A stretch of DNA of 64,000 nt, from assembly GCA_963707125.1 (NCBI GenBank), contig CAVPOU010000004.1, positions 84,241 to 148,240 on the forward strand, written 5' to 3'. The first letter of the stretch is position 1. Each line of letters starts with the position of its first letter. This stretch comes from an uncultured delta proteobacterium. Lineage in GTDB: Bacteria; Desulfobacterota; DSM-4660; Desulfatiglandales; HGW-15. The translations under genes and the position numbers were made by a program. Of the stretch, positions 10,498-59,474 are shown one piece after another. The notes under the pieces are model-generated. The model made no database searches, was not told the DNA's origin, and worked only from the letters and a program-made list of their open reading frames with translations.

Positions 10498-10674
10498 GTC
10501 ACCTCCCAGGTGTTCCCTCGTGTATTCTAGAAAAACTCAACCGGCCTTGTCATTACAATTCTCTTGCCCTCTTCAAAGGCTCTGTGCTATTCTTTCTAGT
10601 AAATACGCGGCTTTCCGCTCGCCGGAACCATCCTTGCGAGCGCCGGCGCCTCGTGAGTCAATGAGGAGGAATCC

Positions 10675-11367
10675 ATGAAGCGACTCTTCACCCCGGCTTC
10701 ATTGTGTTTTCTGTTTTGTTTTGCTCTTTTGTCTTTTTCCCAGGCTCAGACCCCTTCCGGACCTGCCATGGTGCTCCCCGAGAGATCCTTTGATTTCAGG
10801 GAAGTGGAGGAAGGGAAAGTCGTTGAACATGCCTTCAAGGTTTTGAACAAAGGCAACCAGCCTCTTGAAATCAAGAACGTGAATCCCGGGTGAGGCTGCG
10901 CCGTGGCCTACTATGATAGGTCCATCCCCCCCGGAGGGGAGGGAAAAATTACACTGAAGGTCGATACCAGAGGATACGAGGGCAAGTTCCGGAAAGCCGC
11001 TAGGGTCTACACCAACGACCCGAAAATCCCTCAGGACACGCTTATCATGGAGGCTCTGGTCAAAACGCCTATCGTGCTATCGGAGAGAATGGTTTTCCTG
11101 CAGGGAACCACGCAGGAAGCCGTCACAAGAGCCGTGGACATCAAAGGGGAGCTCAACAAGCCTCTGAAACTCGAGCCCGTCGACTACACCCTCAACGAGA
11201 AGGTGAAATTCAACATCGAAGAAGTTGCGAAGGGGAAGCACTACCGGGTCACCTTCACGAGCATCCCGAATGTGGGCAACTATTACCAGGGTCTCCTCAG
11301 GCTCAGGACAAGCTATCCTGAAAGACCGGAAGTCGTGATCCATGTGAGGGGGAAGTTCATCAACTAA
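10675..11367 (+). CDS. DUF1573-family secreted protein read through an in-frame TGA at 10891-10893 (candidate selenocysteine)
   Basis: ORFs 10675..10893 and 10903..11367 share one frame and are separated only by the TGA. GAGGAGG lies before ATG 10675. The N-terminus is signal-like. ..LEIKNVNPG-TGA-GCAVAYYDRSIPPGGEGKITLKV fits the DUF1573 SCGCT..PG..G.I pattern, with TGA at the first Cys. A hairpin sits at 10905-10922. Confidence 0.6.
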
Positions 11368-12145: not shown

Positions 12146-13123
12146 ATGAAATGCCCTAAGTGCGGTTATGTCAGCTTTGACTATAACCTGAGTTGCCCAA
12201 AGTGTAACAAAGATATCTCCTCTGAACAGGAGAAACTGCATATTCCCGCATTCAGACCTGACCCGCCATTCCTTCTTGGCGCATTGACCGGGGAAGTCAA
12301 TGAGTCTCAGATTGGTCCTGCTCCTGCGGCATCTCAGATTCCCTTTGAAAAAGAGGCAGATATTAGCATGGACGACTCCAGCTCACTGGACTCCGATGAG
12401 GTCTCTCTTGACGATTCATCTGAGCTGAGCCTGGATTCGGGCGAGCTCTCCCTGGATGACACATCGTCCATCTCCCTGGACACAGGAGAGGTTCAGGCTA
12501 GAGTTGCCAAGGGCTTGCAGAAGTTAAAAACCGAGACGGGCAAATCTGATACAGGGGACTTCAAATTGGAACCTGAAGAAGCTCTTCCAGACTTCGATCT
12601 GGGAGAAGAAGGCGAAGAGGAATTTTTGCTGGATTCAGAAGAAAAAGGCGAAGAAGAATTTTCAGTGCAGGAAGCGGCAGATTCCGAGCTGGATATTACT
12701 CTCGACCTTGAGGAAGAGGAAACTGAAGGCTCTGAACCTGCCTCAGACCTGCTGAGCAAGAAGGACAAAGAAGCCACCGCTCCAGAGCTTGAGCCGCTGG
12801 ATCTGGAAGCGGAAGAGACTCAAGGCAAAGAGGAAATTGAACTCAGCCTGGATGACCTCAAAATCAATGACACGGGGGAACTGGAGCTTGGGTCCGATGC
12901 CAATGCTTCAGATGAATTGGACAAACTCCTCGAAATGGACGAAATCAAACTCGATGAAATCCCTTTACCGGGCGCCTCTCCAAAATCAAAACGTGAAGCG
13001 CGCGTGGTCAGCGCCACAGCCCTAAAGAAGAAGGCCGGCGCCACGCCTGCGGATGACGAGCTTTCTCTTGACCTGGAAGACCTGGATCTGGACCTGGAAC
13101 TGGAGGACGCGAAACCTCATTGA
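12146..13123 (+). CDS. Zinc-ribbon protein with a long hyper-acidic tail carrying reiterated (E)LSLD motifs
   Basis: AGGAG lies 7 nt before the ATG. N-terminal CPKCG..x11..CPKC. The remaining ~290 aa are D/E/S/L-rich with SLDSDEVSLDDSSELSLDSGELSLDDTSSISLD and a terminal LSLDLEDLDLDLELED. Confidence 0.7.
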   Translation: MKCPKCGYVSFDYNLSCPKCNKDISSEQEKLHIPAFRPDPPFLLGALTGEVNESQIGPAPAASQIPFEKEADISMDDSSSLDSDEVSLDDSSELSLDSGELSLDDTSSISLDTGEVQARVAKGLQKLKTETGKSDTGDFKLEPEEALPDFDLGEEGEEEFLLDSEEKGEEEFSVQEAADSELDITLDLEEEETEGSEPASDLLSKKDKEATAPELEPLDLEAEETQGKEEIELSLDDLKINDTGELELGSDANASDELDKLLEMDEIKLDEIPLPGASPKSKREARVVSATALKKKAGATPADDELSLDLEDLDLDLELEDAKPH

Positions 13124-19515: not shown

Positions 19516-21849
19516 TTGCTGCAGAAGAAGCACAACAACGTTCTTGATCACATCGGCTGGACGCCTCTTGTGCCCATCCGCCAGTTGAATACCAACCGAA
19601 GCGTTCAGATCCTGGCCAAACTCGAGTCCTTCAACCCCGGAGGCTCCGTGAAAGACAGGCCGGCCTTTTACATGATCGAAGAGGCGGAAAGAACCGGAGA
19701 ACTGACCAAGGACAGGATCATCCTGGAGGCAACGAGCGGCAACACAGGGATCGGGTTGTCTCTTGTGGCCGCCGTCAAGGGCTATCGCATCCTGCTGGTG
19801 ATGTCCGAAGCCGTCAGTGAGGAAAGAAAAAAGATTTTGAAAGCCATGGGGGCGGATCTCCAGTTCACCCCCGCCCACATGGGCACGGATGGATCCATCG
19901 AGTTCGCCTACAACCTGGTCCGAGAAGAAGCGCAGAAGTTCTGGCTTGCAGACCAGTTCAACAACGATGCGAACTGGCTCTCCCACTACCACGGAACAGC
20001 TATGGAGATATGGGAGCAGACCGGCGGCGCCTTGGACATGGTCGTGGCCAGCATGGGCACCACGGGCACCCTCATGGGGCTTGCCCGGCGCTTCAAGGAG
20101 CTCAAGCCCGAGGTCCAGATCATCGGCGTAGAACCTTACATGGGGCACAAGATTCAGGGTCTCAAGAACATGAAAGAGTCCTATCCCCCGGGAATCTACG
20201 ACCGGAAAAGAGCGGACAGGATTATGCATGTCGACGATGGAGAGGCTTTTGAAACCACCAGACTCCTTGCCAAGAAAGAAGGCCTTTTCGTGGGCATGAG
20301 CGCAGGGGCGGCCATGGCCGTTGCTCTCAGGCTCGCTCGAGAAATGAAAGAGGGACGAATCGTCGTCATCCTTCCGGACGGAGGGGAACGCTATCTGAGC
20401 ACTTCTCTTTTCGTGGACAGAAAAACCTCGGGGCTTTGCCTGTACAACACGCTCACGCGGAGAAAGGACGCGTTCGTTCCGATCCAGGAAAACCGGGTCA
20501 GCCTCTACAGCTGCGGGCCCACCCTTTGCCAGCACCTCCACATCGGGCAAGCCCGCCAGCTGGTTTTCTCCGACCTGGTCCGCCGCACCCTCGAGCTCAA
20601 GGGCTACGAGGTCACTCACATTGTGAACGTGACGGACATTGACGACCGAACCATTGAAGGCGCGGAAAAAGAGGGGGTGGACCTCAAAGAGTTTACGGAA
20701 AGGTACTATCAGGAGTTTCTTAAGGACCTGGATTCGCTCCTTGTCAAGAAGGCCACCGCCTATCCCAAAGCGAGCGAGCACATCGAGGATATGATCCAGT
20801 TTTCCGGCAAACTCCTCGACAAAGGGTACGCCTACGAGAAATTCCGCTCCCTCTATTTTGACATCTCCCGGTTCAGAGACTACGGGAGACTCTCCAGAAT
20901 CGACCTGGACAAGATTCACCTGGGGAAAACCGTGGATCTCGAACGATATGAAAAGGGCAATCCCAGGGATTTCACCCTCCTCAAGCGTTCCACCCTGAGC
21001 GAACTCAAGAAGGGCATATTCTTCCAGACCAAGTGGGGAAACGTAAGACCGAGCTGGCACCTCGAGTGCCCGGTCATGGCTCTAAAATTTCTCGGCGACA
21101 CCCATGACATCCACACCGGAGGAGCGGATCTCGTGTTCCCTCACCACGAGAACGCCATCGCCCTCAGCAGGGCAATCACCGGTAAACCGCTTGCCAATTA
21201 CTGGCTGCATCATGAACTGGTCATGGTGGACGGCAAGAAACCGGCCGACGGCAAGGAGAGCGAACACACCACGATCAAGAATCTTCTTAAGAAGGGGTAC
21301 ACCGGGAGAGAAATCAGATACTGGCTCATCAGCCATCATTACAACAAGCCCATCTCCTTTTCTCTGGCTAAGCTGGACAACGCGAAGAAGACTCTTTCCA
21401 ACCTGGACAAGTTCATGAAGAAAGTCTTCTTTTGCCGCTCCGGTGAAACCAACCCTGAAATGGACCAGGTGGTCTACAACCTCAACCACAAGTTTTCCGA
21501 AGCCATGGATGACGATCTCAACACCTCGCAGGCTCTGGCTGCCCTGTTCGAGTTTACCCGTGAAGTGAACCGCATCGTCGATCAGAAGGGACTCTCTCAG
21601 GAAGACAAGCAGCGGGTGAAAGAAGCCCTGGGCGCCGTCAACTCGGTCCTGGAGATCATGGACCTGGACGCGCCCAAGGCGGACGAAGCGATTGAAGCCC
21701 TGATTCAGAAAAGGGAAGCGGCTCGAAAGCCAAGGGACTGGCAAACGGCTGACCGGATTCGCCAAGAGCTCAAGAGGATGGGAATTGAGCTGACGGATAC
21801 CAGGGATGGAACCATGTGGCGGAGAGAATGGGATTCGAACCCGAGGTAG
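19516..21849 (+). CDS. Fusion protein: CysK/CysM-like PLP cysteine synthase (aa ~1-300) + cysteinyl-tRNA-synthetase-like domain with degenerate class I motifs (aa ~305-777)
   Basis: N-terminal half: ..NPGGSVKDRPA..TSGNTGIGL..GTTGT..SAGAA.. C-terminal half is collinear with CysRS (LYNTLTRRKD..YSCGPT..WHLECPVM..FPHHEN..DDDLNTSQALAAL..GTMWRR). It reads HIGQ instead of HIGH and KKPADGKESEH where KMSKS is expected. TTG start is assumed at 19516. Confidence 0.8.
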   Translation: MLQKKHNNVLDHIGWTPLVPIRQLNTNRSVQILAKLESFNPGGSVKDRPAFYMIEEAERTGELTKDRIILEATSGNTGIGLSLVAAVKGYRILLVMSEAVSEERKKILKAMGADLQFTPAHMGTDGSIEFAYNLVREEAQKFWLADQFNNDANWLSHYHGTAMEIWEQTGGALDMVVASMGTTGTLMGLARRFKELKPEVQIIGVEPYMGHKIQGLKNMKESYPPGIYDRKRADRIMHVDDGEAFETTRLLAKKEGLFVGMSAGAAMAVALRLAREMKEGRIVVILPDGGERYLSTSLFVDRKTSGLCLYNTLTRRKDAFVPIQENRVSLYSCGPTLCQHLHIGQARQLVFSDLVRRTLELKGYEVTHIVNVTDIDDRTIEGAEKEGVDLKEFTERYYQEFLKDLDSLLVKKATAYPKASEHIEDMIQFSGKLLDKGYAYEKFRSLYFDISRFRDYGRLSRIDLDKIHLGKTVDLERYEKGNPRDFTLLKRSTLSELKKGIFFQTKWGNVRPSWHLECPVMALKFLGDTHDIHTGGADLVFPHHENAIALSRAITGKPLANYWLHHELVMVDGKKPADGKESEHTTIKNLLKKGYTGREIRYWLISHHYNKPISFSLAKLDNAKKTLSNLDKFMKKVFFCRSGETNPEMDQVVYNLNHKFSEAMDDDLNTSQALAALFEFTREVNRIVDQKGLSQEDKQRVKEALGAVNSVLEIMDLDAPKADEAIEALIQKREAARKPRDWQTADRIRQELKRMGIELTDTRDGTMWRREWDSNPR

Positions 21850-21891: not shown

Positions 21892-22134
21892 ATGCTTTCC
21901 AAAGTAGAGGTTATGGAGACTTCCAGGGGGTGTACGCGTACGTGGTCATTCTGCATCATGAAGCAGATGTATGGGCAGACTTTCCGGACGTATCCCATCG
22001 AACGGGTCTTGGCGGATACAGATGATATTTATTATAACCGCCGGACGGGAGGCGCATTGCGGCCAGGAGGCATTAATCGTTTCGCAATTGAACTGACCTG
22101 GTTCGTAAAATCTCCCCTCGCCCCTCTTTGTTAA
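21892..22134 (+). pseudogene. Fragment of a B12-binding-type radical SAM gene
   Basis: VMETSRGCTRTWSFCIMKQMYGQTFRTYPIERVLADTDDIY resembles the ..SRGCxxxCxFC...R.R....V..E core, but the middle Cys is Trp and both flanks are missing. Confidence 0.35.
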
Positions 22135-22204
22135 AGAGGGACGATCCCTCCCTTTGTAAAAGGGAGGGGAGGAGGGACTGAGCGAACGGCCGCCGGCCCG
22201 CGGA

Positions 22205-22597
22205 TCAGTGCGACCCCTTGGCCGGCTCCGCCGGCACCTGAATGGTTCGGAAGAGAAGCAGCAGCCCGAAGATCAGCGCGAAAATCTCCCCGCCCAAGGT
22301 CAGGATCACCGACATCAGGTTCATCATGTCCACTGCCGACACCCAGGTGGCGACCGCGGCTCCTGCCGTGGTCTGCAAGGTGGGTATGCCCGCCTGCGGG
22401 GCCGACAGGAAATAGAAGAGCAGGGTACCCACCTCGAAGAGCAGCACCAGCATTGAGAAGAGAATGGCGATGCTTGCCGCCATCACCCCGGTGAAACCGG
22501 TTCCGGCTGCAGAAAACTCGGAGCGGCCGTTGAGAGCCTGGAACTGGCTCTCGAAGGACTGATTGCGGGCGCTGAATGGTGGAGGTTCTGGCTCCAC
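22205..22597 (-). CDS. Hypothetical small membrane protein
   Basis: 130-aa ORF with 3 hydrophobic segments; no recognisable family. It lies in a high-GC region where spurious ORFs are common. Confidence 0.35.
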   Translation of the reverse strand: MEPEPPPFSARNQSFESQFQALNGRSEFSAAGTGFTGVMAASIAILFSMLVLLFEVGTLLFYFLSAPQAGIPTLQTTAGAAVATWVSAVDMMNLMSVILTLGGEIFALIFGLLLLFRTIQVPAEPAKGSH

Positions 22598-23218
22598 AGG
22601 CTAGCAGGAGGTCAGACCACGAACCACCCAGCCGCAGGTGATCGGGACTCCCCTAGAACTGAGCGACGATCCGCGGAGGTGGAGGATGTCGTCGACGATC
22701 ACTTGCAGGTGCTGCCGGGTGCTCGGCATCGCCGTTGACCGGGCATCCGCATTCAGGGGCTGAAAGTGATCCCGCGCACGGAGTGGCATGCGGTATCTTT
22801 CGGGCTGTGCTGAACGGTATGGTTGTCTCGCAATGGCGCTCGAGCAAGTGACCGCACTTGCTCAAGGCACCACTGAGACACTCGCTAGAAGCCCCGGCGC
22901 ACCATGACGAGGACCTCGGTCGAGCTGTGGTTGAAGCCGGCGGCGTTGCTCTGGTCGCGCACGAGATGCACCGCCTCGCGCGCGCTCACCCCCTTGCCGT
23001 GCTCGAAGGTCTGCAGCGCCGCGGCAGGCGGCCGGTATCTTCTTTGCTCATGACTTCCCCTCCGGACGTCCCCGCCCTAGCTTGCCAGTCCCGCACCGGC
23101 TGCGCGAAACGCCGGCGCAGATCGTTCGCGATCGGCTCGACCTTCGTGCGGCCGTTCTGGTCGGCGATGCGTGCCTGTCGCCGTGACTACTCCACCGGGA
23201 AACTTCGAGCTTTCCGGA

Positions 23219-23450
23219 CTAGAAGAACAACGTCACGCGGCCGTTGATGATGTAGTCGTAGGTCGCTCCCGAAGGATTGCCGATCTTGGTCGCGCCGCCG
23301 AATGCGAATTCGAGGTTCCGGCTCCAGCGATGGACGAGCAGGAGGTCGAGGACTGGAGGATTGCGCTGGCCGTGCCGGCAACGGACGATACGGTCCGTAG
23401 CGAACGTTAAGCTGAGGAAGGACGACCTTATCCGTGGAAGATAGGTTTGC
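23219..23450 (-). pseudogene. C-terminal remnant of an outer-membrane beta-barrel (porin-like) gene
   Basis: The - strand frame reads ..SLTFATDRIVR..NLEFAFGGATKIGNPSGATYDYIINGRVTLFF*. It has alternating beta-strand character and a terminal Phe. No start codon or N-terminal part is present. Confidence 0.3.
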
Positions 23451-23884
23451 TCCTCTCATCTGTTTGCCCGGCTTTGGTTCTGGTGGCTATGGCGCTAGGA
23501 GGCTAGCCCCACTCCTGTTGCCGCGACTCAGTGGCGTGTCCTGATTGGCACGGATATCGTCGCCGGCCGATCGGCGGTTACTAATGGTCCCACAATTGTC
23601 TTTGCATCGCGAAGCCCCCTCTCACCCTGCCCCTGGTCGCCTTTTACCAGCCTCTGGCTGGCTGGCGCTGCCGAAGGCAGGGATAGGGTGAGGGGGAGCG
23701 CATAGTCAATACTATTTCGAGACGATTAACATCGGAGCATGCAAGTTGGGATTTCCCTATTCGTTGTGTTGTGCTATATTCGTGCGGTAATTCCGGTCTT
23801 CGGACCGGTCCGAAGGCCGGCGTTTCATGTCCGTTCATCCACCCGGCCGGCAATCCGAACTGTCAGAGGCACCCCAGCGATTCT

Positions 23885-24883
23885 ATGAGGCAACGCGTTC
23901 AGATAGGAAGCGCCACCTGGTCATTCCTGAGTTCCCGGGTGCTGCCGTTGCGCCCGGTTCAGCTGGTGATCCAGACCGGCTTGAAATGGGACCGTGACAA
24001 CTGCCCCGGCATGGCCGCGGCCCTTTCCTATTACGCCCTGTTCTCACTTTTCCCGCTGCTTCTGGTCATTCTGAGCATTGTCGGGGCCCTGATCGGCCCT
24101 GAGACGGAGGTATTTGAATACATTCAAAAGCTGATCGTACGGGATCTGCCCCCGGCCGTTCAAGACATGGTGGTGGGGACCATTGTCGCACTTAACGAAA
24201 ACAGCGTGGGTGCCAGCATTGTGGGGTTTAGCCTGCTTTTTTTTACGGCCAGCACCCTGTTTGTGGTTCTGCGCCAGTCGGTGAACATAATCTGGGAATC
24301 CCCCGCCCGCATCTCCGAGGCGGGCTCGATCCCCCGAATGGTGCTCTTCTTCATCCTCAACAAGCTGGTGGCCTACCTGCTGGTGCTGGCGACCGCCTTG
24401 ATCCTGTTGGTGTCTTTCGTGGCGAGCGTTTCCATCGGGGCTGTCATCGAGGTGGTCAACCACTTCCAGAAAAATGTCGCCTTCATCCAGCAGGTGGACG
24501 AACTGCTGCTAACCCGCTGGCTTCAGGTCAGCACTTCGGTCGTCATCCTGAGTGTAACCTTGTGCATTCTCTTCAAACTTCTGCCCACGGTCCGTCCCCG
24601 GTGGCGGGACGTATGGCTGGGGGCCATCCTCACGGCTTTCATGCTCGTCGGGCTGCAGAAGTTGGCCACGGGCGGCGTCGTTTCCGTTTTCGGCAAATTT
24701 CTGTCCTATGGGGCGATCGGCAGCGTTATGATTCTGTTGCTGTGGATCTTCATGGCCTGCCAGATCGTGTTTGTGGGGTGTGAGTTTTCGTATGTTTACG
24801 CGCAGCTTTACGGCAGCCGCCGCGGTAAGGCTCCACCCGCAGAGCGGGTGGCCTCAGGTTGCCCCCTCGAAGGGGGCTCTTGA
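23885..24883 (+). CDS. YihY/BrkB (ribonuclease BN-like) family membrane protein
   Basis: ..WDRDNCPGMAAALSYYALFSLFPLLLVILSIVG.. followed by 5-6 TM segments. The start is set at ATG 23885 within the ORF that opens at 23771. Confidence 0.8.
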   Translation: MRQRVQIGSATWSFLSSRVLPLRPVQLVIQTGLKWDRDNCPGMAAALSYYALFSLFPLLLVILSIVGALIGPETEVFEYIQKLIVRDLPPAVQDMVVGTIVALNENSVGASIVGFSLLFFTASTLFVVLRQSVNIIWESPARISEAGSIPRMVLFFILNKLVAYLLVLATALILLVSFVASVSIGAVIEVVNHFQKNVAFIQQVDELLLTRWLQVSTSVVILSVTLCILFKLLPTVRPRWRDVWLGAILTAFMLVGLQKLATGGVVSVFGKFLSYGAIGSVMILLLWIFMACQIVFVGCEFSYVYAQLYGSRRGKAPPAERVASGCPLEGGS

Positions 24884-25171
24884 TCAGCAGTTTGCCCAAA
24901 TTGCCAAAACACGTCCTCCCCCTTGATGGGGGAGGTCACCCGCCAGGCGGGTAAAGGTGGGGGTGAAAAAAGTGGCTGTGAAATCCCGTCACCATAACCC
25001 CCTCCCCCCGTATCAAGTACGGGGCAGGCTCTAGCCCCTCCCACCAGCCTTCGACGTGCTCACGGTCCCGAGGAAGATCGAGGGAGGGAGGGGAAACGCC
25101 GGATCGGTAGAACCTATCCGGGTCCTCCACCAGAGGTGAGGGTTCAGTCACAACCAAGCGGGCCGGGTGGA

Positions 25172-26138
25172 TTACCGCCGGGCCGTAATGCGCTGCCCGT
25201 CCGGGGTGTGCAGCACCAGGCGCCCCTGCGGACCGATCTCGAAGCGATGGGTTTTCTGGAGCAGCTCCAGGAAGCGCATCTCCTGGCGGCTCAACGGCTC
25301 CTCGCAGGCCATCTTCGTGCCGGCCATCTGCCCGAACGAAAGCCCCTCTCCGGTCAGGCGGAAGCTGCCCGTGAATCGGTTGCACGAGGCGTTGCCGGCC
25401 ACGCGGCCCTCCTCCAAAAAGAGGATCGTCGCCTTGGATTTTTCCGCCACCGGCACACCGTCGATGGTCTCCACGATCCACTCCAGCCCGGTGAGAAGAT
25501 TCCGGGGGTCGCCGCCGCAGCCTGCGTGCGCCTTGCCGTCGAGCTCGTAGCGCACCCGATAGGGGTGGGGCATCCCGGTGGCGACATCGGCGCAGATCTC
25601 CGGCCGGAGGGTGACCGCCAGGCGGCGGCCCTCGGCCGCGGTCCGGTAGAGGAAGCCCTCGGCGGTCGTTAGAGGTTCGGTTTTCGGCATGCGGAGCTGC
25701 AGGGCTCCGAAGTCGGCGTTGAGGAAGATCGCGTCGGCATCGATCGTGATCATCCAGCCGGGCTCCTGGCCGCGGGCGGTGAAGGGCAGGTCGGGCTCCC
25801 GCAGGGCGCGACACTCGGGAAGCTCCCGGCCGCGCACGGTCACCAGGGCCAGATCGCCCTTGCTCCAGAAACCGGTGGCGGTGTCCGTCGACGGCCGTAT
25901 AGCGGGCGCCGGAGGCCGATACGGCGGTTTTCAGGTCAAAGGATTCACCGGCAACGTTCATCCGCGCACGCCCCTCCGGTGCATTGAAGATGACCGGCGT
26001 GGTCCCGCACAGGTAGAGGATTTTGTCCGGGATCACCGGCTGTGCGCTCTTGTCCTGTCCGGTCCGGTCCGGGTGAATGCAGCCCGAGGCAAGCGCCGCA
26101 AAAGCCGCAAAAGCCGCCGCTACAAGCTTTTTGTTCAT
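25172..26138 (-). pseudogene. Lipoprotein with MliC-like and META (HslJ-like) domains, one frameshift near 25883-25890
   Basis: AGGAGG lies before ATG 26138. The lipobox is LASGC. ..LYLCGTTPVIF..SASGARYTAVD continues in another frame as TDTATGFWSKGDLALV.. (ORF 25172..25843), which contains NRFTGSFRLTGEGLSFGQMAGTKMAC. Confidence 0.7.
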
Positions 26139-26184
26139 ATAGTTCCTCCTTTCCCGGAGCCGGCACCGCCGCTGCGTGATTTGC

Positions 26185-26667
26185 CTATCCCTGGAGTACC
26201 TCCCGCAGCCGCTGCTCATCGTCGAGGGCAAGCGACGTCTTCAGGACTTTGCCTTTGAAACCTTGCAGGCGTTCCAGCACCTTGTCCTCCGTGGCCTGGC
26301 GAAAGAGCACGAACAGGACCGAAGCGCCGGGAGTGAAGTCCTTGCTGAACTCCTTCATGAACTTGTCGTCGATGCCGATGTCCGTCAGCTTGCCGCTCAG
26401 CGCACCGGCGGCGGCGCCCACGGCGGCGCCCAGCAGGGGATTGAGAAAGAGAACGCCGATGAGCATGCCCCAGAAGCTGCCGCTCACGGTTCCCGTCAAG
26501 GTCAGGTCGACCGCCTGATGCAGCTTCACCTTGCCCTTTTCATCCTTGGTGACCACGACAACGTCCTTCATGTCGATCAGATACTCTTTCTGCATCTTGG
26601 CCAATTCCGCCCGCACAGCAAAAGCGGTGTGCTCGTCGTGAAACTCGATCGCTACTAAGTCAGACAT
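26185..26667 (-). CDS. DUF1269-family membrane protein
   Basis: 160 aa. MSDLVAIEFHDEHTAFAVRAEL..KDVVVVTKDEKGKVKLHQ..Gly-zipper TM..GIDDKFMKEF is the typical pattern. Confidence 0.85.
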   Translation of the reverse strand: MSDLVAIEFHDEHTAFAVRAELAKMQKEYLIDMKDVVVVTKDEKGKVKLHQAVDLTLTGTVSGSFWGMLIGVLFLNPLLGAAVGAAAGALSGKLTDIGIDDKFMKEFSKDFTPGASVLFVLFRQATEDKVLERLQGFKGKVLKTSLALDDEQRLREVLQG

Positions 26668-26745
26668 AAAGACCTCCTTCGATGGGTTTAAATGGTTGGT
26701 GTCACGGTGCTGGTTCCAAAAACCCCATGAACACTAGGGACAGTG

Positions 26746-26832
26746 AAGCTCGTAGCGCACCCGACGGGGGTGGGGCCTTCCGGCGGCGACATCGGCGCAG
26801 ATTTCCGGCCGCATGCCGACCGCCAGGCGGCG
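26746..26832. repeat. ~87-bp diverged duplicate of an internal segment (25541-25630) of the MliC/META gene
   Basis: gaagctcgtagcgcacccgacgggggtgggg..ggcgacatcggcgcagat.tccggcc..gaccgccaggcggcg aligns with 25541-25630 with scattered substitutions. On the - strand it would encode ..RPEICADVAAGRPHPRRVRYEL. Confidence 0.6.
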
Positions 26833-26948
26833 TTCAGTCCCTCCTTTCCCCCGTCTTGCGCGAGACGGCGAAATTTCCTGTACCGGATTGCCGGTTTCTT
26901 ACTATCCCTGCCGGCCTCGGAGCAGCCGCTGACCCGACTCGCCGTGGG

Positions 26949-27512
26949 CTACAGATCGAGCCGTGTGATGCGCGCGCCGTCCAGCGAGATGCCCGCCATG
27001 AGCCCGCGGTTGGAAAGCACGTAACCGATGACGGGCTGCTGCGCCGTAGCCGTGGTCACCTGCGCGCTCGCGCCCACCGAGATCAAGGTCACCGATGCAT
27101 CGGCGCCCACCGTCCAGCCCGAGCTGTTCTGGAACTGCCTCAGCGCGTCGTCCGTCATGAACAGCAAAAAGACCGCCGTCGACTGGGCGCCGGCCTGCAG
27201 GCCGAACGATCCGCTCGTCGTGGCGTGGTAGCTCTTTGTCTTGCCGCCGATGCGCAGCGCTCCCTGGCCGCGCGAGGCGCCGACGATGAACCCGGCCTCC
27301 ATCACGGACGGGAACACCAGCACGCCCCGGGCGCGGCCCACCAACTGCTCCGATCCCTCGACCTGCCCATAGAGCCTGGCGAGCGCATTGTCGACTTCGG
27401 CATCGATGCTGCGGCGCCTCGTGTCAGGGTCGCCAGAACTCGGGCCGGTGGTGGTGCAGCCGAAGGCGAGCACCAGGAAAACGGCCAGAACAGATAGAAT
27501 TCGTTTGTTCAT
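26949..27512 (-). CDS. SYLF (Ysc84-like, DUF500) domain lipoprotein
   Basis: Lipobox LAFGC. ..ARGVLVFPSVMEAGFIVGASRGQGAL..GSFGLQAGAQS..GWTVGADASV..GLMAGISLDGARI matches the family pattern. Confidence 0.85.
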   Translation of the reverse strand: MNKRILSVLAVFLVLAFGCTTTGPSSGDPDTRRRSIDAEVDNALARLYGQVEGSEQLVGRARGVLVFPSVMEAGFIVGASRGQGALRIGGKTKSYHATTSGSFGLQAGAQSTAVFLLFMTDDALRQFQNSSGWTVGADASVTLISVGASAQVTTATAQQPVIGYVLSNRGLMAGISLDGARITRLDL

Positions 27513-27565
27513 TCAATGTCCTCCTTGTTTTAAATTTGTTTGGAACTGGATCAATTGATGTAACA

Positions 27566-27709
27566 AGATTTGTGCCAAGAGGGTCGACAGGCCAATTATT
27601 GACACAATCAATTGATATGATTTGATATTTATAGACGAACCAGATTTCGCGATCCGGAAGGCCATGGGCCGGTTTTCGTGGGATGCAGAGGAAGCGTTAA
27701 ATATCACGG
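27566..27709. repeat. ~145-bp non-coding repeat, copy 1 (second copy at 56156-56299)
   Basis: atttgtgccaagag.gtcgacaggcc.attattgacacaat.aattgatatgatttgatatt....gat.ccggaagg..atgg.ccggttttcgtgg.atg.agaggaagcgttaaatatcacgg is shared by both copies, roughly 85-90% identical by eye. Confidence 0.75.
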
Positions 27710-27761
27710 AAATTCTCACCGGCCTCGGCCACAAAGTCGAGGATCGCCTGCCGCCGCCGGT

Positions 27762-29057
27762 TCAGCGTTTCTTCGCGCGCCGTACATAAGACCCCACCCG
27801 GCCGATCTGCAACTGCCACCAGCCGAACGTTTCGGTGAGCCACTTGTAAACGGCGGCGCCGACCAGCGTGCCGAGAGCGACCGAGGTGATCACAAACACC
27901 ACCATGACCAGGCCTTCGAGCCCGGCAGCGCGGTCGCTCAGCATGCGCGTGACGCTCAGCAGGCCCAAGGCGCCCGGTACCAGCAGCCAGAAGGCGGGCA
28001 GGAAGGTCACGGTTGCCGGCGGACCGCGGAAGCGGAGCTGAATCAGGTAGCCCAGCGGTGTGGCCACCAGCGTGCCGAAGAACCCGCTGATCTCGCACCC
28101 CAAAAACCCTCCCGCGAGCCGCTGCGCCGCAAAGGCGATCAGCAGCACCAGGAGAATCCAGTGCAGGGAATTTCGCGGCGCCGAGAAGTGAAGATAAACT
28201 CCCAGGCCGAACACCAAGACGCCGGCCCAGGCGGCCTCCACTATTTTCACGTAATGCGCGGCGGAGTAGGTCAGGTCGTTGGGGCTGTAGCCGACGAGCA
28301 CGGCGCCCACCGCGAGACCGAACGCCAGCAGCACCAGTTGCACGAAGCCGGCGATCAGGCGGCTTGCGCCGCTCACCATGTCGCCGTAGGCGAGCTCCAC
28401 CATGCCGAGTGCGAGCATGCCGCCCGGCAGGAAGGTTATCAGCGGCGGCACCAGCGCGTGCAGGGGATCCACCGGCAGTCCATACTTCACTGCGAGGAAA
28501 ACGAGCGCGGAGACAAGCGCCGCGGCGATCACCGGCAGCGGCACCGCCTGCACGGCGCGCCCGCGGTTGGACAGTTTCACCGCGCCCACGATGAAACCAA
28601 GCCCTGCCGCCGCCGCCAGGTTGGCGGCCGTCGGCATCAGCACCATCGCCAGGCCGACGGTTAGAATCGTGTGGCCCACGACGATCCCGGCGGCACCGAA
28701 GCGCGCCTTCTGCGCCAGGATCGCCGAGAGCCGCTGCAGGCCCTCGCCCGGCGCCACCTCCGCTTTCTGGGCCGCCTCGCCCAACGCGTAAATGCCGCCG
28801 ATCTGGTCCAGTCGCAGCGTCTGCGGTTCGCATTGGACCAGGGTCACGCGCTCGCCTGCTTCGTCATGAATCGAAATGAACAGGGCGGTGGGAAACGCCA
28901 CGGCGCGCGACTTGCGCATCCCGTAGGCCGAGGCCGTGCGGCGCAGGATCAGCTCCACCTTCGCCGTCTGCTCGCCGCACGCTATGTAGGCCTGCCCCAG
29001 CCGGAACATGAACTCGATCAAAGTCGCCGTGTCGGGCGCCGTGGATTCTTTCTTCAC
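27762..29057 (-). CDS. Threonine/serine exporter (ThrE) family membrane protein
   Basis: 431 aa with a GTG start. N-terminal regulatory-like part (..FMFRLGQAYIACGEQTAKVELILRRTASAYG..) followed by ~10 TM segments, the typical ThrE (DUF1212+DUF3815) layout. Confidence 0.8.
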   Translation of the reverse strand: MKKESTAPDTATLIEFMFRLGQAYIACGEQTAKVELILRRTASAYGMRKSRAVAFPTALFISIHDEAGERVTLVQCEPQTLRLDQIGGIYALGEAAQKAEVAPGEGLQRLSAILAQKARFGAAGIVVGHTILTVGLAMVLMPTAANLAAAAGLGFIVGAVKLSNRGRAVQAVPLPVIAAALVSALVFLAVKYGLPVDPLHALVPPLITFLPGGMLALGMVELAYGDMVSGASRLIAGFVQLVLLAFGLAVGAVLVGYSPNDLTYSAAHYVKIVEAAWAGVLVFGLGVYLHFSAPRNSLHWILLVLLIAFAAQRLAGGFLGCEISGFFGTLVATPLGYLIQLRFRGPPATVTFLPAFWLLVPGALGLLSVTRMLSDRAAGLEGLVMVVFVITSVALGTLVGAAVYKWLTETFGWWQLQIGRVGSYVRRAKKR

Positions 29058-29096
29058 ATGAATGGTCCCAAAATGGTCTTTACATCGCGAAGCCGC

Positions 29097-30309
29097 CTAT
29101 TCCTGGGTCGCCAGCGCCACGGCCAAGCGGCAGCCCTTGAGGTACTCCGGCACGTTCACGTACTCCTTGACGGTGTGGACCTCGGCCTGTCCCGAGCCGA
29201 AGGTCACCGTCGGCACGCCGTGCTTGACCAGCCAGTTGGCATCGAGGCCTCCGTTCGAGCTGATGACCTCGGGCGTCATCCCGAGCGACTCGACCGCGCG
29301 CCGGGCATACTGCACCGCCGGCGATTTCTCGTCGAGCTTGAAGGGCGGATAGGACGGCTGTGCATCGAACTTGACCTCGGCCATCTCGCCGTCCGAGTTT
29401 TTCACGGCTTCCCGCGCCTTCATGAACGCGTCGCGGTAGCCCGCCGCGATTTTGCCGGCGAACGCGGCATCGTGGCTGCGTGCTTCGCCGGTAATGTGGA
29501 CGTAATCGGTGACGACGTTGGTGGCGTCGCCGGCTGCCTTGCGGTCCTTGCCGCCGAACACGCCCACGTTACTGGTCCCCGCGCCCTCGGGCTTCGTGAC
29601 CTTGCCGAACCAGCCGGCGCGATGCGCTTCGGCGAGTGCGATCGATCCGACGAGCGTGGCGGATATCCCCTTTTCCGGGGCCACTCCGGCGTGCGACGCC
29701 TTGCCCTTGATCTCCGCCTCCCAGTTTTCCTGGCCGACGGCGGCGATGAGCAGCATGTTCGCGTGGGTGGTGTCCACGTTGAAGCACATCCGGCGCTCCC
29801 CCGAGGTCCTTGGGGTCGAGCTCGCGGGCCCCGTGGATCCCGCTCTCCTCGCGGACCGTGAAGAGCAGGGTGAGCGGCGGATGCGGCAGCTTGTGCTTCA
29901 GCAGCGTCTCGACCATGGCGACGATCACCGCGCACCCCGTGCGCGCATCGCTGCCGAGCGCGGTGCTGCCGTCGGTCACGATCCGGTCCCCCTGGCGCAT
30001 CGGTTTGGCGCCGGCACAGAGCGCGACCGTATCCAGGTGGCTCGAGAACAGCAGCCTGTCTCCCTTCCGCGTCCCGGGAAGCTCCACGATCAGATTGCCG
30101 GTCTGCGTGGGCAGCGGGATCTTCTTGTGGACGTTGTCGAACCGGATGGCCGCCGCCGGCACCCCGACTTTCTGAAGTGCGTCCGCGACCGCCTCTGCGA
30201 TCGCCTTTTCCTCGCCGGTGATGCCTTCCACCGTCAGAAAGTTCATCAGGTGCGCTTCAGCGGCACTCACGTCCAGCGGCATGTCTTTCATCGCATTCTC
30301 CTTTAACAT
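29097..30309 (-). pseudogene. M20/M42-type metallopeptidase, one frameshift near 29795-29802
   Basis: The N-terminal piece (ORF 29569..30309: ..LLFSSHLDTV..GSDARTGCAV..FTVREESGIHGAREL..) continues in another frame (ORF 29097..29789: ..FNVDTTHANML..ASHAGVAPEKGIS..). The junction is at a C5/G5 run. Confidence 0.75.
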
Positions 30310-30410
30310 TATTGTTTTTGTCTAACAGTTTAGCTCTTTGAAATGGATGGCCTTTTTCTGTGTTTATTTCAAAGAGCTAAACTGTTACGTTTTTGTTATT
30401 CCGGCCGGCG

Positions 30411-31956
30411 CTAAAAGCCCCACGGCAGACCGAGCAGGTACCAGACGGCAAACAGACCCGTCCACGCAACGGTCATCCACACCGCGTAGGGCAGGAGCAG
30501 CGCCACCACAGTGCCGATGCCGGTGTTTTTGGCGTACTTCTGTGCAAACCCGACGACCAGCGCGAAATAGGCATTGAGCGGCGTCAGCGTGTTGGTCGGC
30601 GAGTCGCCGACGCGATACGCCGACAACACGGCCGCGGGGTCCACATTCAGGGTCACGAAGAGCGGCACGAAGACCGGCGCGAAGATCGCCCACTTGGCGA
30701 TCGCGGGCGTGAACACAATGTTCAACGCGGTGACCACGAGGATGAACCCCAGGAGCATCCAGATCGAGCCGATATTCGCGGCTTTGAGGGCGTCGGCCAT
30801 CGTCACCGCCATCAGCGTCGGCAGGTTGCTGTAGTTGAAATAGGCGATGAACTGGCTGATGACCAAAAACAGCAGGATGCGTTCCGCCGAGCCCGCTGAT
30901 CGCTTTGGTCATGGCGCCGATGACGTCGGCGCTGCTCTTCATCGTGGCGGCCCCGATGCCGTAAGCGACGCCGGCCGCGAGGAACACGAACATGATCGCG
31001 ACGATCAGCCCGTTCATGAACGGTGAGTTGCCGATCAGCGCGCCGGTTTCCGGATTTCGCAGCGGAGCGCCGGACGGCAGGGTCAGGAGCCCGAAAATCC
31101 CTAGCACCAGAACCAGAGCGACCGCGGCAAAGGCGAGACCGCGCCACTCGGCGGCCGCCAGGCTGGAGCCCTGCGCGGCTGGCTCAGTGCCCTCGGCGTG
31201 ACTCGGATCAAACTTGCCCAGCCGCGGCGAGATGACGCGATCGGTGACCAGCGCGATCACGATCACGAGCAGTGGCACCGAAACGATCGAAAACAACAGA
31301 CCGGAGGTTAGTTCGATCGTTCGCGTCGGGTCCACCATGCGGATCGCGTCGTTGGTCAGTTCGGTCAGCACCGCGTCCAGCGGCTTGATGAGCATGTTGA
31401 CGTTGAAGGCGCCGGCCACCGCTGCGAACCCCAGCGCGATGCCCGCCAGCGGGTGCCGGCCGAGGCTGAGGAACGCGGCGCCGGCCAGCGGGATCAGGAC
31501 CACATAGCCGGCATCTGCGGCAATGCTGGAGAGCACGCCGACGAAGGCCAGCAGGTACGTGATCGACCAGGCCGGCGCGACCGCCACGATCATGCGGATC
31601 AGGGCCTTGATGAGTCCGGCTTCCTCGGCCACGCCGACGCCCACCATCGCCACGACGAGGAGCCCGATCGCGGCGAACCCCATGAAGTTGGGCACCAACC
31701 GGACGTAAATGTCGCGGATCCCGCTCGCCGTGGCGAGGCTGCGCGCCTGCGTCGTAGCGGTCTCGATCGCGTGCGTCTCCGGATTGATCACCTGGTAGGT
31801 GACGCTCGCGCCGGTCGCTTCCAGAATGAAGGAGAGGACGATGACAAACCCAATCAGGATCAGGAAGATGATCACCGGATGCGGGACCCGGTTGCCGACT
31901 TGCTCGACGGTGTCCAGGAACCGCTGCATCATCGATTTGGGTGCTCTGGAGGTCAC
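30411..31956 (-). pseudogene. AbgT-family (p-aminobenzoyl-glutamate/dipeptide) transporter, one frameshift near 30875-30887
   Basis: ORF 30385..31956 is AbgT-like (..FLDTVEQVGNRVPHPVIIF..) up to ..AMTKAISGLGG. It then continues as ILLFLVISQFIAYFNYSNL.. in ORF 30411..30866. Confidence 0.75.
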
Positions 31957-32070
31957 AGCTCCTCGTCAGATGGGCATCGATATAAGAGAGTCCTCCGGAG
32001 AAGGACCGATATCGGCTCGCGCCGGGAGACTCCATAACCCCGTTTGAAACTGCAAGCGGTCGCAGCGGCG

Positions 32071-33052
32071 TTAGTGATACGGCGCGAACGCCGCGGCAAC
32101 GTCGGCGCCTTTTCCGCCGCGCATGACGAGGCCGAGCAGCAGCCGCGCCTTGAGGCCCGAGAGGCAGCCCGCGGACACGACACCGCGCTTGATCAGGTCG
32201 ATTTCCGCTCCGGGATAGCCGTAGGTGCGGGTGAAGACATGGCCCGTCATGGCACGGCTCGCGAGCACCACCGGTATTTTGGCCGCCAGGTCGCCGACGA
32301 TGGGAGCCACGTCCGCATGCACGTGGCCGGCGCCCATCCCCTCGATCACCACCCCCGCGTAGCCCAGGCCGGGCAGCGATCCGAACAGGCGCCCGTCGTC
32401 GCCCATGGCGGCCTTGATGAGCGCCACCGGTGCGGGCGGGCCCTCTGCGGCCGGCAGGGTGGGGTTGCGCGTCACGCGCACATAGAAGCGCGGCTGCCGT
32501 TCGATGAGGGTGCCGATCGGCCCGACCAGCGGCGAGAGAAACGCCGAGGGCAGGGCGGTGTGCGATTTTTGAACGAAACGCGCCGCATGAATGTCGTAGT
32601 TGAGGACCGCGAGCGTTCCGAGGCCGCGCGACTCCGGGCATGCGGCGACGATGGCCGCCGACAAGAGATTGGCGGGCCCGTCCGCGCCCGGTGCATCGGC
32701 GCCGCGCATGGCGCCCGTGACGACCACCGGCTTGTCGGAGTCGACGAGGAGATCGAGCAGGAACGCCGATTCCTCGATGGTGTCGGTGCCCTGGATCACC
32801 ACCGCGGCGTCGAACCCGGAAGCGAACGCCTCCCGGATCGTGCTCGGCGACTTCGACCAGGTTCGCCGGGGTGAGCGAGGGGCTGGGCAGGCGGAAGGGC
32901 GACCGCGCGTCGATGTCTCCGACTTCGGCGAGCGCGGGCACCGACGCCACCAGCTCGGCGGCGCCCAGTTTGGGGGTGATGCCGCCCGAATCGCTCGGGA
33001 CCATGGTGATCGTCCCGCCGAGCGAGAGAACGAGAAGACGGGGTTTGTTCAT
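32071..33052 (-). pseudogene. L-asparaginase (type I-like), one frameshift near 32845-32857
   Basis: MNKPRLLVLSLGGTITM.. (start 33052) runs to ..TPANLVEVA. It then continues in another frame as STIREAFASGFDAAVVIQGTDTIEESAF.. (ORF 32071..32802). Confidence 0.75.
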
Positions 33053-33071
33053 GGCGTCATCGTCCTTTCCG

Positions 33072-34727: not shown

Positions 34728-34818
34728 GGCATTTATTCTCCTTTCTTGCGTTCGGTTCCTGTTTTCTCGGGCGCCATGCGTGCGGCGCACCGAGGGGTAT
34801 GGGTTCCGGCCGTGCAGA

Positions 34819-35823: not shown

Positions 35824-36140
35824 GCCAGCCTCCTTTCACGGCACCGTTTAAGAAACGATAGAACTTTGCAGATTGGTGGATGCAGCAGGGGAAACCGTAC
35901 AGAAAATTTTTATTTTTATAATTACTTCCGATCTAGATGTCAAGGATTTTTCTAGGTGCAAAAAGAATGTTAAACTTTTCAAAATCCTCTTGCGCTAGTG
36001 ATTATTCTCTGTTAATTGTTCCAATTTTGACGGACAAGTATCATTTTAACAGCTCGTCTACAAGACCCTCAAACCGAAGAGGCTCAGAACAGTCGAAACC
36101 GGCTGGGACCCCATGCCCCGGCACTCCTGAAAGGCAGCCC

Positions 36141-37319: not shown

Positions 37320-37324
37320 CGGCC

Positions 37325-40300: not shown

Positions 40301-40488
40301 GCGCCGCGGCCCGCACGTCTTTGGGCACCGCCGTCGTTGCCGGCATGGCCACCGCCACCGTGCTGAGCCTCTTTTTTATTCCGGTGCTTTACTACGCGGT
40401 TCAGACCCTGGTGGAGAAGATCAAGGGGCGCCCGCAGGTTCCCATCGACCTGACGGCGGCGGCATCGCGGCCGGCCGGCGAGCCGTGA
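37325..40488 (+). pseudogene. RND (AcrB/HAE1-type) inner-membrane efflux pump, one frameshift near 37694-37704
   Basis: ORF 37325..37735 (MVKYFIHRPVFAIVIGLIILIAG..) and ORF 37729..40488 are collinear with AcrB. ..PPEVMNS|GISVRKASPDMLMVLSLFSP is restored by a 1-nt shift. Confidence 0.8.
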
Positions 40489-40499
40489 AGGGGGATGTC

Positions 40500-41961: not shown

Positions 41962-41993
41962 CCGGTGCTGCCGGCCGACCGCATAGCGTTGGT

Positions 41994-47890: not shown

Positions 47891-48042
47891 ATAGGGGCAA
47901 CGCCGCATTGGCGCCGATGCAGGCGGCGCCAACGCCGCCCATCACCCGCCGCAGGCCTTCTGTGCACCATAACCAGCTAACTTCGGCCGTCGGTCTGCAT
48001 GGGCGTTGTTAGCTGGCAGAACCACCGTCGCCCATCCACGAG

Positions 48043-59366: not shown

Positions 59367-59474
59367 AATATTTTCTCCTGAATAATGGTCCACAACCCGG
59401 TTGAATTTAAACTAAAAGTTAGAAGTAAACTTCTTATGCCATAGACTCGCATCAGTGCCTGGAGGTCCCACCTG

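What the first reader, a model, noticed from the sequence alone, without database searches (positions are those of the whole stretch)
10675..11367. In-frame UGA at the conserved first Cys of a DUF1573 C-G-C motif: candidate new selenoprotein
**What the sequence shows.** The two tracked ORFs (10675..10893 and 10903..11367) are in the same frame and are separated only by TGA at 10891-10893. The GTG start of the second ORF looks like an ORF-caller artefact.

**Read-through product.** It is a single ~230-residue exported protein: ..SFDFREVEEGKVVEHAFKVLNKGNQPLEIKNVNPG-[UGA]-GCAVAYYDRSIPPGGEGKITLKVDTRG.. This follows the DUF1573 pattern as I know it (..F.F.......v...f...N.G...L.I..v..SCGCT......i.PG..G.I.V.f). 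The UGA falls exactly on the first Cys of the C-G-C motif, giving a U-G-C redox-like triad.

**Hairpin.** Eleven nt after the UGA there is a 6-bp hairpin, GGCCUA-CUAUGA-UAGGUC (10905-10922). This is the position where bacterial SECIS elements sit.

**Significance.** A UGA aligned to a conserved Cys is the classical signature of Sec/Cys homolog pairs. I do not recognise DUF1573 as one of the classical bacterial selenoprotein families.
Basis: partly seen in the sequence, partly recalled or inferred. Interest (0 to 1): 0.8.

Follow-up and report, generated by a model that had tools for sequence, protein, structure and literature searches.

The report
Known DUF1573 (OS_HP2) selenoprotein gene
The in-frame UGA is real and almost certainly encodes selenocysteine in a secreted two-domain Ig-like protein, but this DUF1573/OS_HP2 "U-G-C" selenoprotein family was described in 2007 and is already curated, so the gene is a routinely mis-split member of a known family, not a new one.

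Summary
ORFs 10675..10893 and 10903..11367 share a frame and are separated only by TGA 10891-10893. The 230-aa read-through product matches Pfam DUF1573 across the TGA.

The selenoprotein reading is strongly supported:
- 82 of 83 orthologous loci (47-99% identity) keep TGA at this codon, with protein conservation on both sides.
- Full-length relatives have Cys there (19/28), including Cys orthologs in the same synteny.
- TGA is an ordinary stop in 12 of 27 other genes in the window.
- Synonymous sites downstream are frozen in a stem-like pattern that Cys forms lack.

"New" is not supported. NCBIfam NF041425 "OS_HP2 family (seleno)protein" hits above its cutoff. Two reviews list "DUF1573, PF07610, motif UGC" as a prokaryotic selenoprotein, citing Zhang & Gladyshev 2007.

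An adjacent GC-rich hairpin (10925-10944, loop GGA) is conserved in 62/63 orthologs but lies 38-39 nt from the UGA, just outside the published 16-37 nt range.

No selA/B/D or tRNA-Sec lies in the window. Function is unknown; a periplasmic selenol/thiol redox role is inferred. Interest is low.

The parts
10663..10669 (+). Shine-Dalgarno sequence GAGGAGG, 5 nt upstream of the true ATG start
   Evidence: Read directly from the sequence.
10675..11367 (+). Full selenoprotein CDS: 230 codons including UGA = Sec at codon 73, with TAA stop at 11365-11367. OS_HP2/DUF1573 family.
   Evidence: The read-through frame is conserved in 82 loci.
10675..10746 (+). Probable Sec-type signal peptide, MKRLFTPASLCFLFCFALLSFSQA|QTP. 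Judged by eye; no predictor was run.
   Evidence: Sequence. Orthologs and Cys homologs have equivalent hydrophobic N-termini.
10780..11031 (+). DUF1573 Ig-like domain 1 (residues 36-119), which contains the U-G-C motif
   Evidence: Pfam 78.5 bits, NF041425 116.8 bits, AlphaFold model with mean pLDDT 95.8.
10891..10893 (+). In-frame UGA, the predicted selenocysteine codon (residue 73)
   Evidence: TGA in 82 of 83 loci. The aligned column is Cys in 19 of 28 full-length relatives and W (TGA called as Trp) in 6.
10891..10899 (+). U-G-C motif (UGA GGC UGC), in the turn between two beta strands of domain 1
   Evidence: The +2 Cys is present in 26 of 28 relatives.
10903..10925 (+).
   Evidence: -7.9 kcal/mol. 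81.7% of cells paired across 61 sequences. Codons frozen: GTG 54/67, GCC 64/65, AGG/CGG 59/60. Disrupted in the syntenic Cys ortholog.
10925..10944 (+). Helix 2: UCCCCCCC-GGA-GGGG(A)GGGA, with loop GGN and 38-39 nt between the UGA and the loop. Best-conserved SECIS candidate.
   Evidence: -12.5 kcal/mol, and present with G in the first two loop positions in 62 of 63 orthologs. 96.5% of cells paired. Codons frozen at GGG 61/66, GAG 63/67 and GGA 61/67, while the loop codon is free.
11068..11364 (+). Second all-beta Ig-like domain (residues ~132-230)
   Evidence: AlphaFold model, strands 102-198 of the mature protein. Foldseek returns only tandem Ig/ASH-like matches.

Best explanation
Window 10675-11367 is a single gene for a secreted protein of about 206 residues after signal-peptide removal. 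The protein has two Ig-like domains and belongs to the OS_HP2 subfamily of DUF1573. UGA 10891-10893 is decoded as selenocysteine, giving a U-G-C motif in a surface turn where most relatives have C-G-C.

Recoding is most likely directed by mRNA structure immediately downstream. This consists of two adjacent hairpins: helix 1 (10903-10925) and helix 2 (10925-10944, loop GGA). SelB with Sec-tRNA(Sec) would bind this structure while the ribosome pauses at the UGA.

What is shown: one gene; a conserved UGA; Sec/Cys pairing; family membership; RNA-level constraint on the downstream codons.

What is inferred: that the organism has selABCD; which hairpin binds SelB; export to the periplasm; and the biochemical role. 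My best guess for the role is a redox-active selenol/thiol pair (a selenenylsulfide) working in a periplasmic thiol or sulfur relay. That guess rests on rhodanese, DsbD-like and MauE/DoxX genes lying next to some relatives.
For: - One gene: the DUF1573 domain spans the TGA, and the N-terminal 72 aa are conserved in frame in all orthologs.
- Conserved UGA: 82 of 83 loci at 47-99% identity. These include two MAGs, labelled delta proteobacterium and Desulfobacteraceae.
- Sec/Cys pairs: the column is C in 19 of 28 relatives and W (= TGA) in 6.
- Positional Cys orthologs: P0144 and P0133 share the histidine kinase / DUF1573 / RNase H synteny.
- No code reassignment: 12 of 27 validated genes in the window stop at TGA, and none has an internal TGA.
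- Known family: NF041425 'OS_HP2 family (seleno)protein' scores 116.8 against a cutoff of 100; literature.
- RNA constraint: synonymous sites are frozen in both stems but free in the loop and in the upstream Ala codon.
- Pairing: 89% of cells pair, against 44-63% when partners are slid.
- Sec versus Cys forms: mean local MFE is -18.5 kcal/mol in 63 Sec forms and -10.8 in 6 Cys forms.
- Fold: AlphaFold model with mean pLDDT 95.8 shows two beta-sandwich domains with the motif in a turn.
- Context hints: DsbD_2 + rhodanese + MauE/DoxX beside P0127, and rhodanese + MauE beside Sec form L062; SelB, Sulf_transp, TusA and Se_S_carrier near P0132.
Against: - No selA, selB, selD or tRNA-Sec lies in the 64-kb window or in the fetched ortholog flanks.
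- Neither hairpin meets all four bSECIS criteria. Helix 1 lacks a G in the first two loop positions and is weak. Helix 2 is 38-39 nt from the UGA, where the published range is 16-37. Only 5 of 63 orthologs have a fully compliant hairpin.
- Covariation is modest (11 of 500 shuffles reach the observed score), and RNAalifold did not recover the helices.
- Helix 2 is partly an automatic by-product of the PPGGEG codons.
- The window gene's own neighbours (histidine kinase, RNase H) say nothing about function.
- Fold search found no redox enzyme analogue.
- There is no experimental evidence for Sec in any member of the family.
Confidence: 0.88

Rival explanations
1. The gene is a pseudogene, or the TGA is a sequencing or assembly error: a nonsense TGA has replaced TGC/TGT in an ordinary DUF1573 gene.
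For: A single TGA in a single window cannot by itself be told apart from an error. Cys-form orthologs with TGC do exist.
Against: The TGA is present in 82 of 83 independently assembled loci from many samples, at 47-99% protein identity, with purifying selection on both sides. The exact product is found on three other contigs.
Confidence: 0.01
2. There are two separate products: a 72-aa secreted peptide terminated at UGA, and a 154-aa protein initiated at GTG 10903. An SD-like GGUGAGG sequence overlaps the UGA.
For: Gene callers make this call everywhere. A purine-rich GGGUGAGG lies 7 nt before the GTG.
Against: - The split cuts one Ig-like beta-sandwich in half.
- The 154-aa piece would lack a signal peptide and three strands.
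- Cys orthologs in the same synteny are single ORFs.
- In some orthologs the codon at the GTG position is GTT, GTC or GTA, which are not start codons.
Confidence: 0.03
3. UGA is read through without selenocysteine, for example by near-cognate Trp or Cys insertion, or under a reassigned genetic code.
For: Sec machinery was not seen in the window. Some public calls translate the site as W.
Against: - TGA terminates 12 of 27 validated genes in the window, so the code is standard.
- The site aligns to a catalytic-type Cys, not to Trp.
- Downstream RNA structure is conserved specifically in the UGA forms.
- The family is curated as a selenoprotein.
- The 'W' is an artefact of calling under a UGA=Trp table.
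Confidence: 0.06

Closest known systems
[quoted passage not shown]
   Same: Same Pfam domain, same U-G-C motif at the same column, same broad lineage (deltaproteobacteria/Desulfobacterota), and a score above the curated NCBIfam cutoff.
   Different: Nothing essential. This study adds many more members (466 confirmed metagenome stretches), syntenic Cys orthologs, and a description of the downstream RNA structure. The 2007 paper reported two sequences and no Cys homolog within its own dataset.
Cys-form DUF1573 proteins (C-G-C-T motif), e.g. P0144, P0133, P0124
   Same: Same two-domain architecture, length and signal peptide. P0144 and P0133 share the histidine kinase / RNase H synteny.
   Different: They have TGC/TGT in place of TGA, weaker downstream RNA structure, and relaxed codon and peptide constraints after the motif: T-x-A instead of A-V-A.
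Consensus bacterial SECIS (bSECISearch model; E. coli fdhF type)
   Same: Stem-loops lie immediately 3' of the UGA inside the coding region. Helix 2 has a small loop starting G-G and an energy below -7.5 kcal/mol. Helix 1 begins 9-11 nt after the UGA, like the E. coli minimal element.
   Different: No single hairpin satisfies all the criteria: helix 1 fails the loop-G rule, and helix 2 is 38-39 nt from the UGA rather than 16-37. The arrangement is two adjacent hairpins.
Other exported thiol/selenol redox selenoproteins of deltaproteobacteria (DsbA-like, Prx-like thiol:disulfide oxidoreductases)
   Same: A secreted protein in which Sec replaces a redox-type Cys next to a second Cys. This rests on the literature tables and on my own background knowledge.
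   Different: The fold is Ig-like rather than thioredoxin-like, the spacing is U-x-C rather than U-x-x-C, and no activity is known for any member.

Membership tests
Pfam DUF1573 (PF07610) | HMM score above the gathering threshold | tested here: met
   78.5 bits against 26.1, over residues 36-119 of the read-through product.
NCBIfam NF041425 OS_HP2 family (seleno)protein | HMM score above the curated cutoff of 100 bits | tested here: met
   116.8 bits, profile positions 1-97 of 98. For comparison, Sec forms P0068 and P0001 score 113.5 and 109.3, and Cys forms score 98.5-111.5.
NCBIfam NF041425 OS_HP2 family (seleno)protein | U-G-C (or C-G-C) motif at the conserved column | tested here: met
   UGA-GGC-UGC at 10891-10899. 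The column is C/U in 25 of 28 relatives and the +2 position is Cys in 26 of 28. The reviews give the motif as 'UGC'.
Bacterial selenoprotein (computational criteria of Zhang & Gladyshev, PMC1976440) | In-frame TGA conserved in at least two different sequences | tested here: met
   82 of 83 loci, 61-67 distinct sequences.
Bacterial selenoprotein (computational criteria of Zhang & Gladyshev, PMC1976440) | Cys-containing homologs aligned to the TGA | tested here: met
   19 of 28 aligned full-length relatives have Cys. Syntenic Cys orthologs are at L093 and L094.
Bacterial selenoprotein (computational criteria of Zhang & Gladyshev, PMC1976440) | bSECIS-like stem-loop downstream of the TGA | tested here: inconclusive
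   Conserved hairpins with synonymous-site freezing are present. A fully model-compliant hairpin occurs in only 5 of 63 orthologs.
Bacterial selenoprotein | Genome encodes selA, selB, selC (tRNA-Sec) and selD | not testable with these tools
   None was found in the 64-kb window or in ortholog flanks.
Bacterial selenoprotein | Selenium actually incorporated (75Se labelling or mass spectrometry) | not testable with these tools
   Requires an experiment. I found no report of one for this family in the library.
Consensus bSECIS element (PMC13188914, Fig. 2 legend) | Apical loop of 3-9 nt and upper stem of 4-16 bp | tested here: met
   Helix 1 has a 6-nt loop and 8 bp. Helix 2 has a 3-nt loop and 7-8 bp.
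Consensus bSECIS element (PMC13188914, Fig. 2 legend) | [quoted passage not shown] | tested here: inconclusive
   Helix 1 does not meet it (loop CUAUGA; the conserved G is at loop position 5). Helix 2 meets it (loop GGA/GGC/GGU) in 62 of 63 orthologs.
Consensus bSECIS element (PMC13188914, Fig. 2 legend) | 16-37 nt between the UGA and the apical loop | tested here: inconclusive
   Helix 1 has 16-17 nt and meets it. Helix 2 has 38-39 nt, which is 1-2 nt outside, and 37 nt in 5 orthologs.
Consensus bSECIS element (PMC13188914, Fig. 2 legend) | MFE <= -7.5 kcal/mol | tested here: met
   Helix 1 is -7.9 in the window but reaches the threshold in only 23 of 63 orthologs. Helix 2 is -12.5 in the window and reaches it in 62 of 63.

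The most novel reading that the evidence does not exclude
The recoding signal of this family may be a distinct class of bacterial SECIS. It would consist of two adjacent hairpins, with the SelB-binding GGN loop 38-39 nt from the UGA, beyond the 16-37 nt consensus. A folded helix 1 would act as a compact spacer that brings helix 2 to the mRNA entrance of the ribosome. With helix 1 folded, the effective single-stranded spacing is about 16 nt. Separately, the protein could be the periplasmic selenol partner of a DsbD-like / rhodanese / MauE relay.
Probability: 0.25. Interest if true: 0.35.

Novelty: already known. Interest (0 to 1): 0.15.

Why it matters
The practical value is mainly annotation hygiene. 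Every public gene call for this gene, across more than 100 protein clusters, is split into 72 + 154 aa or carries a spurious Trp, although a curated model (NF041425) exists.

The comparative set assembled here comprises 82 Sec loci and syntenic Cys orthologs. It gives a clean natural Sec/Cys pair and a slightly off-consensus SECIS that could refine bSECIS models.

It does not open a new question. The family, the motif and the Sec assignment were published in 2007 and reviewed in 2022 and 2026. The function of DUF1573 proteins remains unknown, and a secreted U-x-C Ig-like selenoprotein is a reasonable but modest target for biochemistry.

Tried and rejected
- Rfam at gathering thresholds found only tRNA-Phe and no SECIS family hit.
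- A PDB sequence search found nothing relevant.
- The RNAalifold consensus on 61 sequences did not recover either hairpin and gave a weak alternative structure at -8.5 kcal/mol.
- A mechanical scan for other in-frame-TGA split ORFs was too noisy in this GC-rich window to reveal further selenoproteins.
- Pfam annotation of about 40 window ORFs found no Sec machinery.
- ARAGORN on 29 ortholog loci found only tRNA-Phe.
- The cluster look-up does not accept 'U', so I could not check whether the full-length selenoprotein is already deposited.
- No sigma-70 promoter on the + strand and no intrinsic terminator was detected around the gene.
- Pseudogene, two-gene and reassigned-code readings were considered and rejected; see the rival explanations.

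Full report
**1. Observation**

- ATG 10675 is preceded by GAGGAGG at 10663-10669 and opens a frame that runs to TAA 11365-11367.
- That frame contains a single in-frame TGA at 10891-10893.
- Mechanical ORF listing splits it into 10675..10893 (72 aa) and 10903..11367 (154 aa, GTG start).
- Read-through gives 230 residues with a hydrophobic N-terminus (MKRLFTPASLCFLFCFALLSFSQA|QTP). I judged this to be a signal peptide by eye; no predictor was run.
- The local sequence is ...NVNPG-U-GCAVAYYDRSIPPGGEGK....

With Cys substituted at the TGA, Pfam DUF1573 (PF07610) scores 78.5 bits against a cutoff of 26.1, over residues 36-119. The domain crosses the TGA, and GTG 10903 lies inside it.

**2. The family is already known**

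- NCBIfam returns NF041425 "OS_HP2 family (seleno)protein" at 116.8 bits against a curated cutoff of 100.
- Two reviews list "DUF1573 domain-containing protein, PF07610, motif UGC" among prokaryotic selenoproteins (PMC9312934; PMC13188914).
- Both cite Zhang & Gladyshev 2007. That paper's Table 2 names OS_HP2 among the new selenoprotein families of the Olavius algarvensis delta-proteobacterial symbionts (PMC1976440).

**3. Is this locus a genuine member?**

*Homolog search.* A search with the read-through protein found 218 relatives.
- Nearly all of the top 120 (63-97% identity) are 154-aa fragments covering only the C-terminal 67%. That means they are split at the same place.
- The few longer calls read NPG-W-GCAV (P0001, P0068). 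These are TGA translated under a UGA=Trp table.

*DNA of orthologs.* I fetched two genome loci (MAGs labelled delta proteobacterium and Desulfobacteraceae) and 80 metagenome loci.
- 82 of 83 sequences, counting the window, have TGA at the aligned codon, across 47-99% protein identity.
- The upstream 72 codons are conserved in frame.
- The exception, L073, aligns only from residue 47, so its extrapolated position is unreliable.

*Cys homologs.* An exhaustive representative search with P0068 gave full-length relatives.
- In the alignment, the column is Cys in 19 of 28 and W (= TGA) in 6.
- The +2 position is Cys in 26 of 28.
- Cys forms P0144 and P0133 lie in the same synteny as the window gene: a PAS/GAF histidine kinase on the opposite strand, then DUF1573, then RNase H. 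They are positional Cys orthologs.
- That synteny recurs in 44-54 of the fetched loci.

*Genetic code.* TGA is an ordinary stop in 12 of 27 Pfam-validated genes in the window, and none has an internal TGA. The code is therefore not reassigned.

These results exclude a sequencing error, a pseudogene and a reassigned code. They also make two independent products very unlikely.

**4. The recoding signal**

It is not significant against shuffles (z = -1.6). Directly 3' of it lies a GC-rich hairpin over the PPGGEG codons (10925-10944, loop GGA, -12.5 kcal/mol; "helix 2").

*Synonymous sites across 67 distinct orthologs.* Sites inside both stems are nearly frozen:

| Codon | Usage |
|---|---|
| Val+4 | GTG 54/67 |
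| Ala+5 | GCC 64/65 |
| Arg+9 | third base G in 59/60 |
| Gly+15 | GGG 61/66 |
| Glu+16 | GAG 63/67 |
| Gly+17 | GGA 61/67 |

Four-fold sites just outside the stems or in the loop are free: Ala+3 has entropy 1.83 and the loop codon Gly+14 has 1.33. Other Gly, Pro and Ala codons in the gene use all four codons.

*Pairing.*
- With both helices specified, 89.1% of cells pair, against 44-63% when the 3' partners are slid by 1-3 columns.
- Helix 1 pairs in 81.7% of cells and helix 2 in 96.5%.
- Covariation proper is modest: 4 pairs show double changes, and 11 of 500 shuffles reach the observed score.
- RNAalifold did not recover the helices.

*Sec forms against Cys forms.*
- The 47-nt region folds to a mean of -18.5 kcal/mol in 63 Sec forms and -10.8 in 6 Cys forms.
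- The syntenic Cys ortholog L093 encodes the same V-A...R-A-V peptide with different codons (GTT GCG ... GCT GTT). That leaves 4 of 7 helix-1 pairs.

*Against the published bSECIS model* (3-9 nt loop; G in the first two loop positions; 16-37 nt spacing; MFE <= -7.5 kcal/mol; PMC13188914):
- Helix 1 meets the spacing (16-17 nt) but not the loop-G rule. It reaches the energy threshold in only 23 of 63 orthologs.
- Helix 2 meets the loop, G and energy criteria in 62 of 63, but lies 38-39 nt from the UGA.
- A fully compliant hairpin exists in only 5 of 63.

My reading is that there is real RNA-level selection on a two-hairpin structure. Which hairpin contacts SelB is unresolved, and the element is slightly off consensus. 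The same review notes that such exceptions exist.

**5. Sec machinery**

No tRNA-Sec, selA, selB or selD is present in the window or in the ortholog flanks. This defining feature could not be tested, because only 64 kb of the genome was available. From the literature and my own background knowledge, deltaproteobacteria are the most selenoprotein-rich bacterial group, which is consistent with Sec decoding here but is not proof.

**6. Structure and function**

*Structure.*
- An AlphaFold model of the mature ortholog P0001 (28-sequence alignment) is confident: mean pLDDT 95.8 and pTM 0.79.
- It shows two tandem beta-sandwich domains.
- The U-G-C motif lies in the turn between strands 33-40 and 45-49 of domain 1.
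- Foldseek against the PDB finds only generic tandem Ig/ASH-type domains and 2qsv, a P. gingivalis protein of unknown function. Structure therefore adds no catalytic analogue.

*Genomic context.*
- The window gene's own neighbours (histidine kinase, RNase H) are uninformative.
- Cys form P0127 sits between a DsbD-like membrane protein and rhodanese + MauE/DoxX.
- Sec form L062 has rhodanese + MauE downstream.
- P0124 follows a rhodanese.
- P0132 lies near SelB, Sulf_transp, TusA and Se_S_carrier genes.

From these I infer, with low confidence (about 0.4), a periplasmic selenol/thiol redox or sulfur-relay role for the U-x-C pair.

**7. Verdict**

The claim of a new selenoprotein family is wrong: this is OS_HP2/DUF1573, known since 2007 and curated in NCBIfam. 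What remains of interest is small. There is systematic mis-annotation in public gene calls, a slightly non-canonical two-hairpin SECIS candidate, and an uncharacterised function.

Noticed in passing
window 19516-21849 (+): A single 777-aa ORF fuses a cysteine synthase domain to a complete cysteinyl-tRNA synthetase, with only about 7 residues between the domains. The cysteine synthase part (CysK/CysM-type, PALP, residues 4-299) hits TIGR01136 at 352.8 bits. The CysRS part (residues 307-770) hits TIGR00435 at 429.6 bits. I did not check whether this fusion is conserved elsewhere or is a lost stop codon.
   Followed up: partly
window 22000-42000: GC content jumps from about 0.50-0.55 to 0.61-0.68. 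The block carries transporter and efflux genes: BrkB, ThrE, AbgT, MFS, glutaminase, HlyD, AcrB and OEP. It may be an acquired island or an assembly chimera.
   Followed up: no
window 48022-49482 and 62540-64000: A 1.46-kb direct duplication at 97.3% identity, 14.5 kb apart. It covers a gene for a 2',5' RNA ligase-like + HAD hydrolase protein. The second copy runs off the end of the window.
   Followed up: partly
window 57969-62466 (-): Three consecutive DUF1254/DUF1214 genes (474, 685 and 325 aa) sit between the two copies of the duplication.
   Followed up: no
window 37729-41882 (+): The AcrB-family ORF (919 aa) matches the profile only from position 136, so its N-terminus is missing or frameshifted. 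A second long ORF (39216-41882) overlaps it in another frame, and the C-terminal part of that ORF carries the OEP outer-membrane factor domain. Possible frameshifts or mis-assembly in the high-GC block.
   Followed up: no
L089 448-6873 (context of Cys-form homolog P0132): A Cys-form OS_HP2 gene lies 1.6 kb downstream of selB and just upstream of Sulf_transp (YeeE-like), TusA and Se_S_carrier (PF11823) genes. This is a selenium/sulfur-trafficking neighbourhood.
   Followed up: no
P0099, P0114, P0118 (metagenome proteins): More distant UGA-split relatives (about 50% identity, 275-285 aa after the split) carry a duplicated C-terminal Ig-like domain. The family therefore includes three-domain Sec forms.
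   Followed up: no
P0001, P0068, P0129, P0148, P0189, P0243: Public protein databases hold full-length versions of these selenoproteins with Trp at the Sec site. P0068 also has a 45-aa spurious C-terminal extension. Both appear to result from gene calling under a UGA=Trp table on metagenome contigs.
   Followed up: partly
window 12146-13123 (+): A 325-aa, highly acidic, low-complexity protein with an N-terminal CxxC...CxxC zinc-ribbon-like motif and no Pfam or NCBIfam hit. It is conserved next to RNase H and tRNA-Phe in 42 ortholog loci.
   Followed up: no
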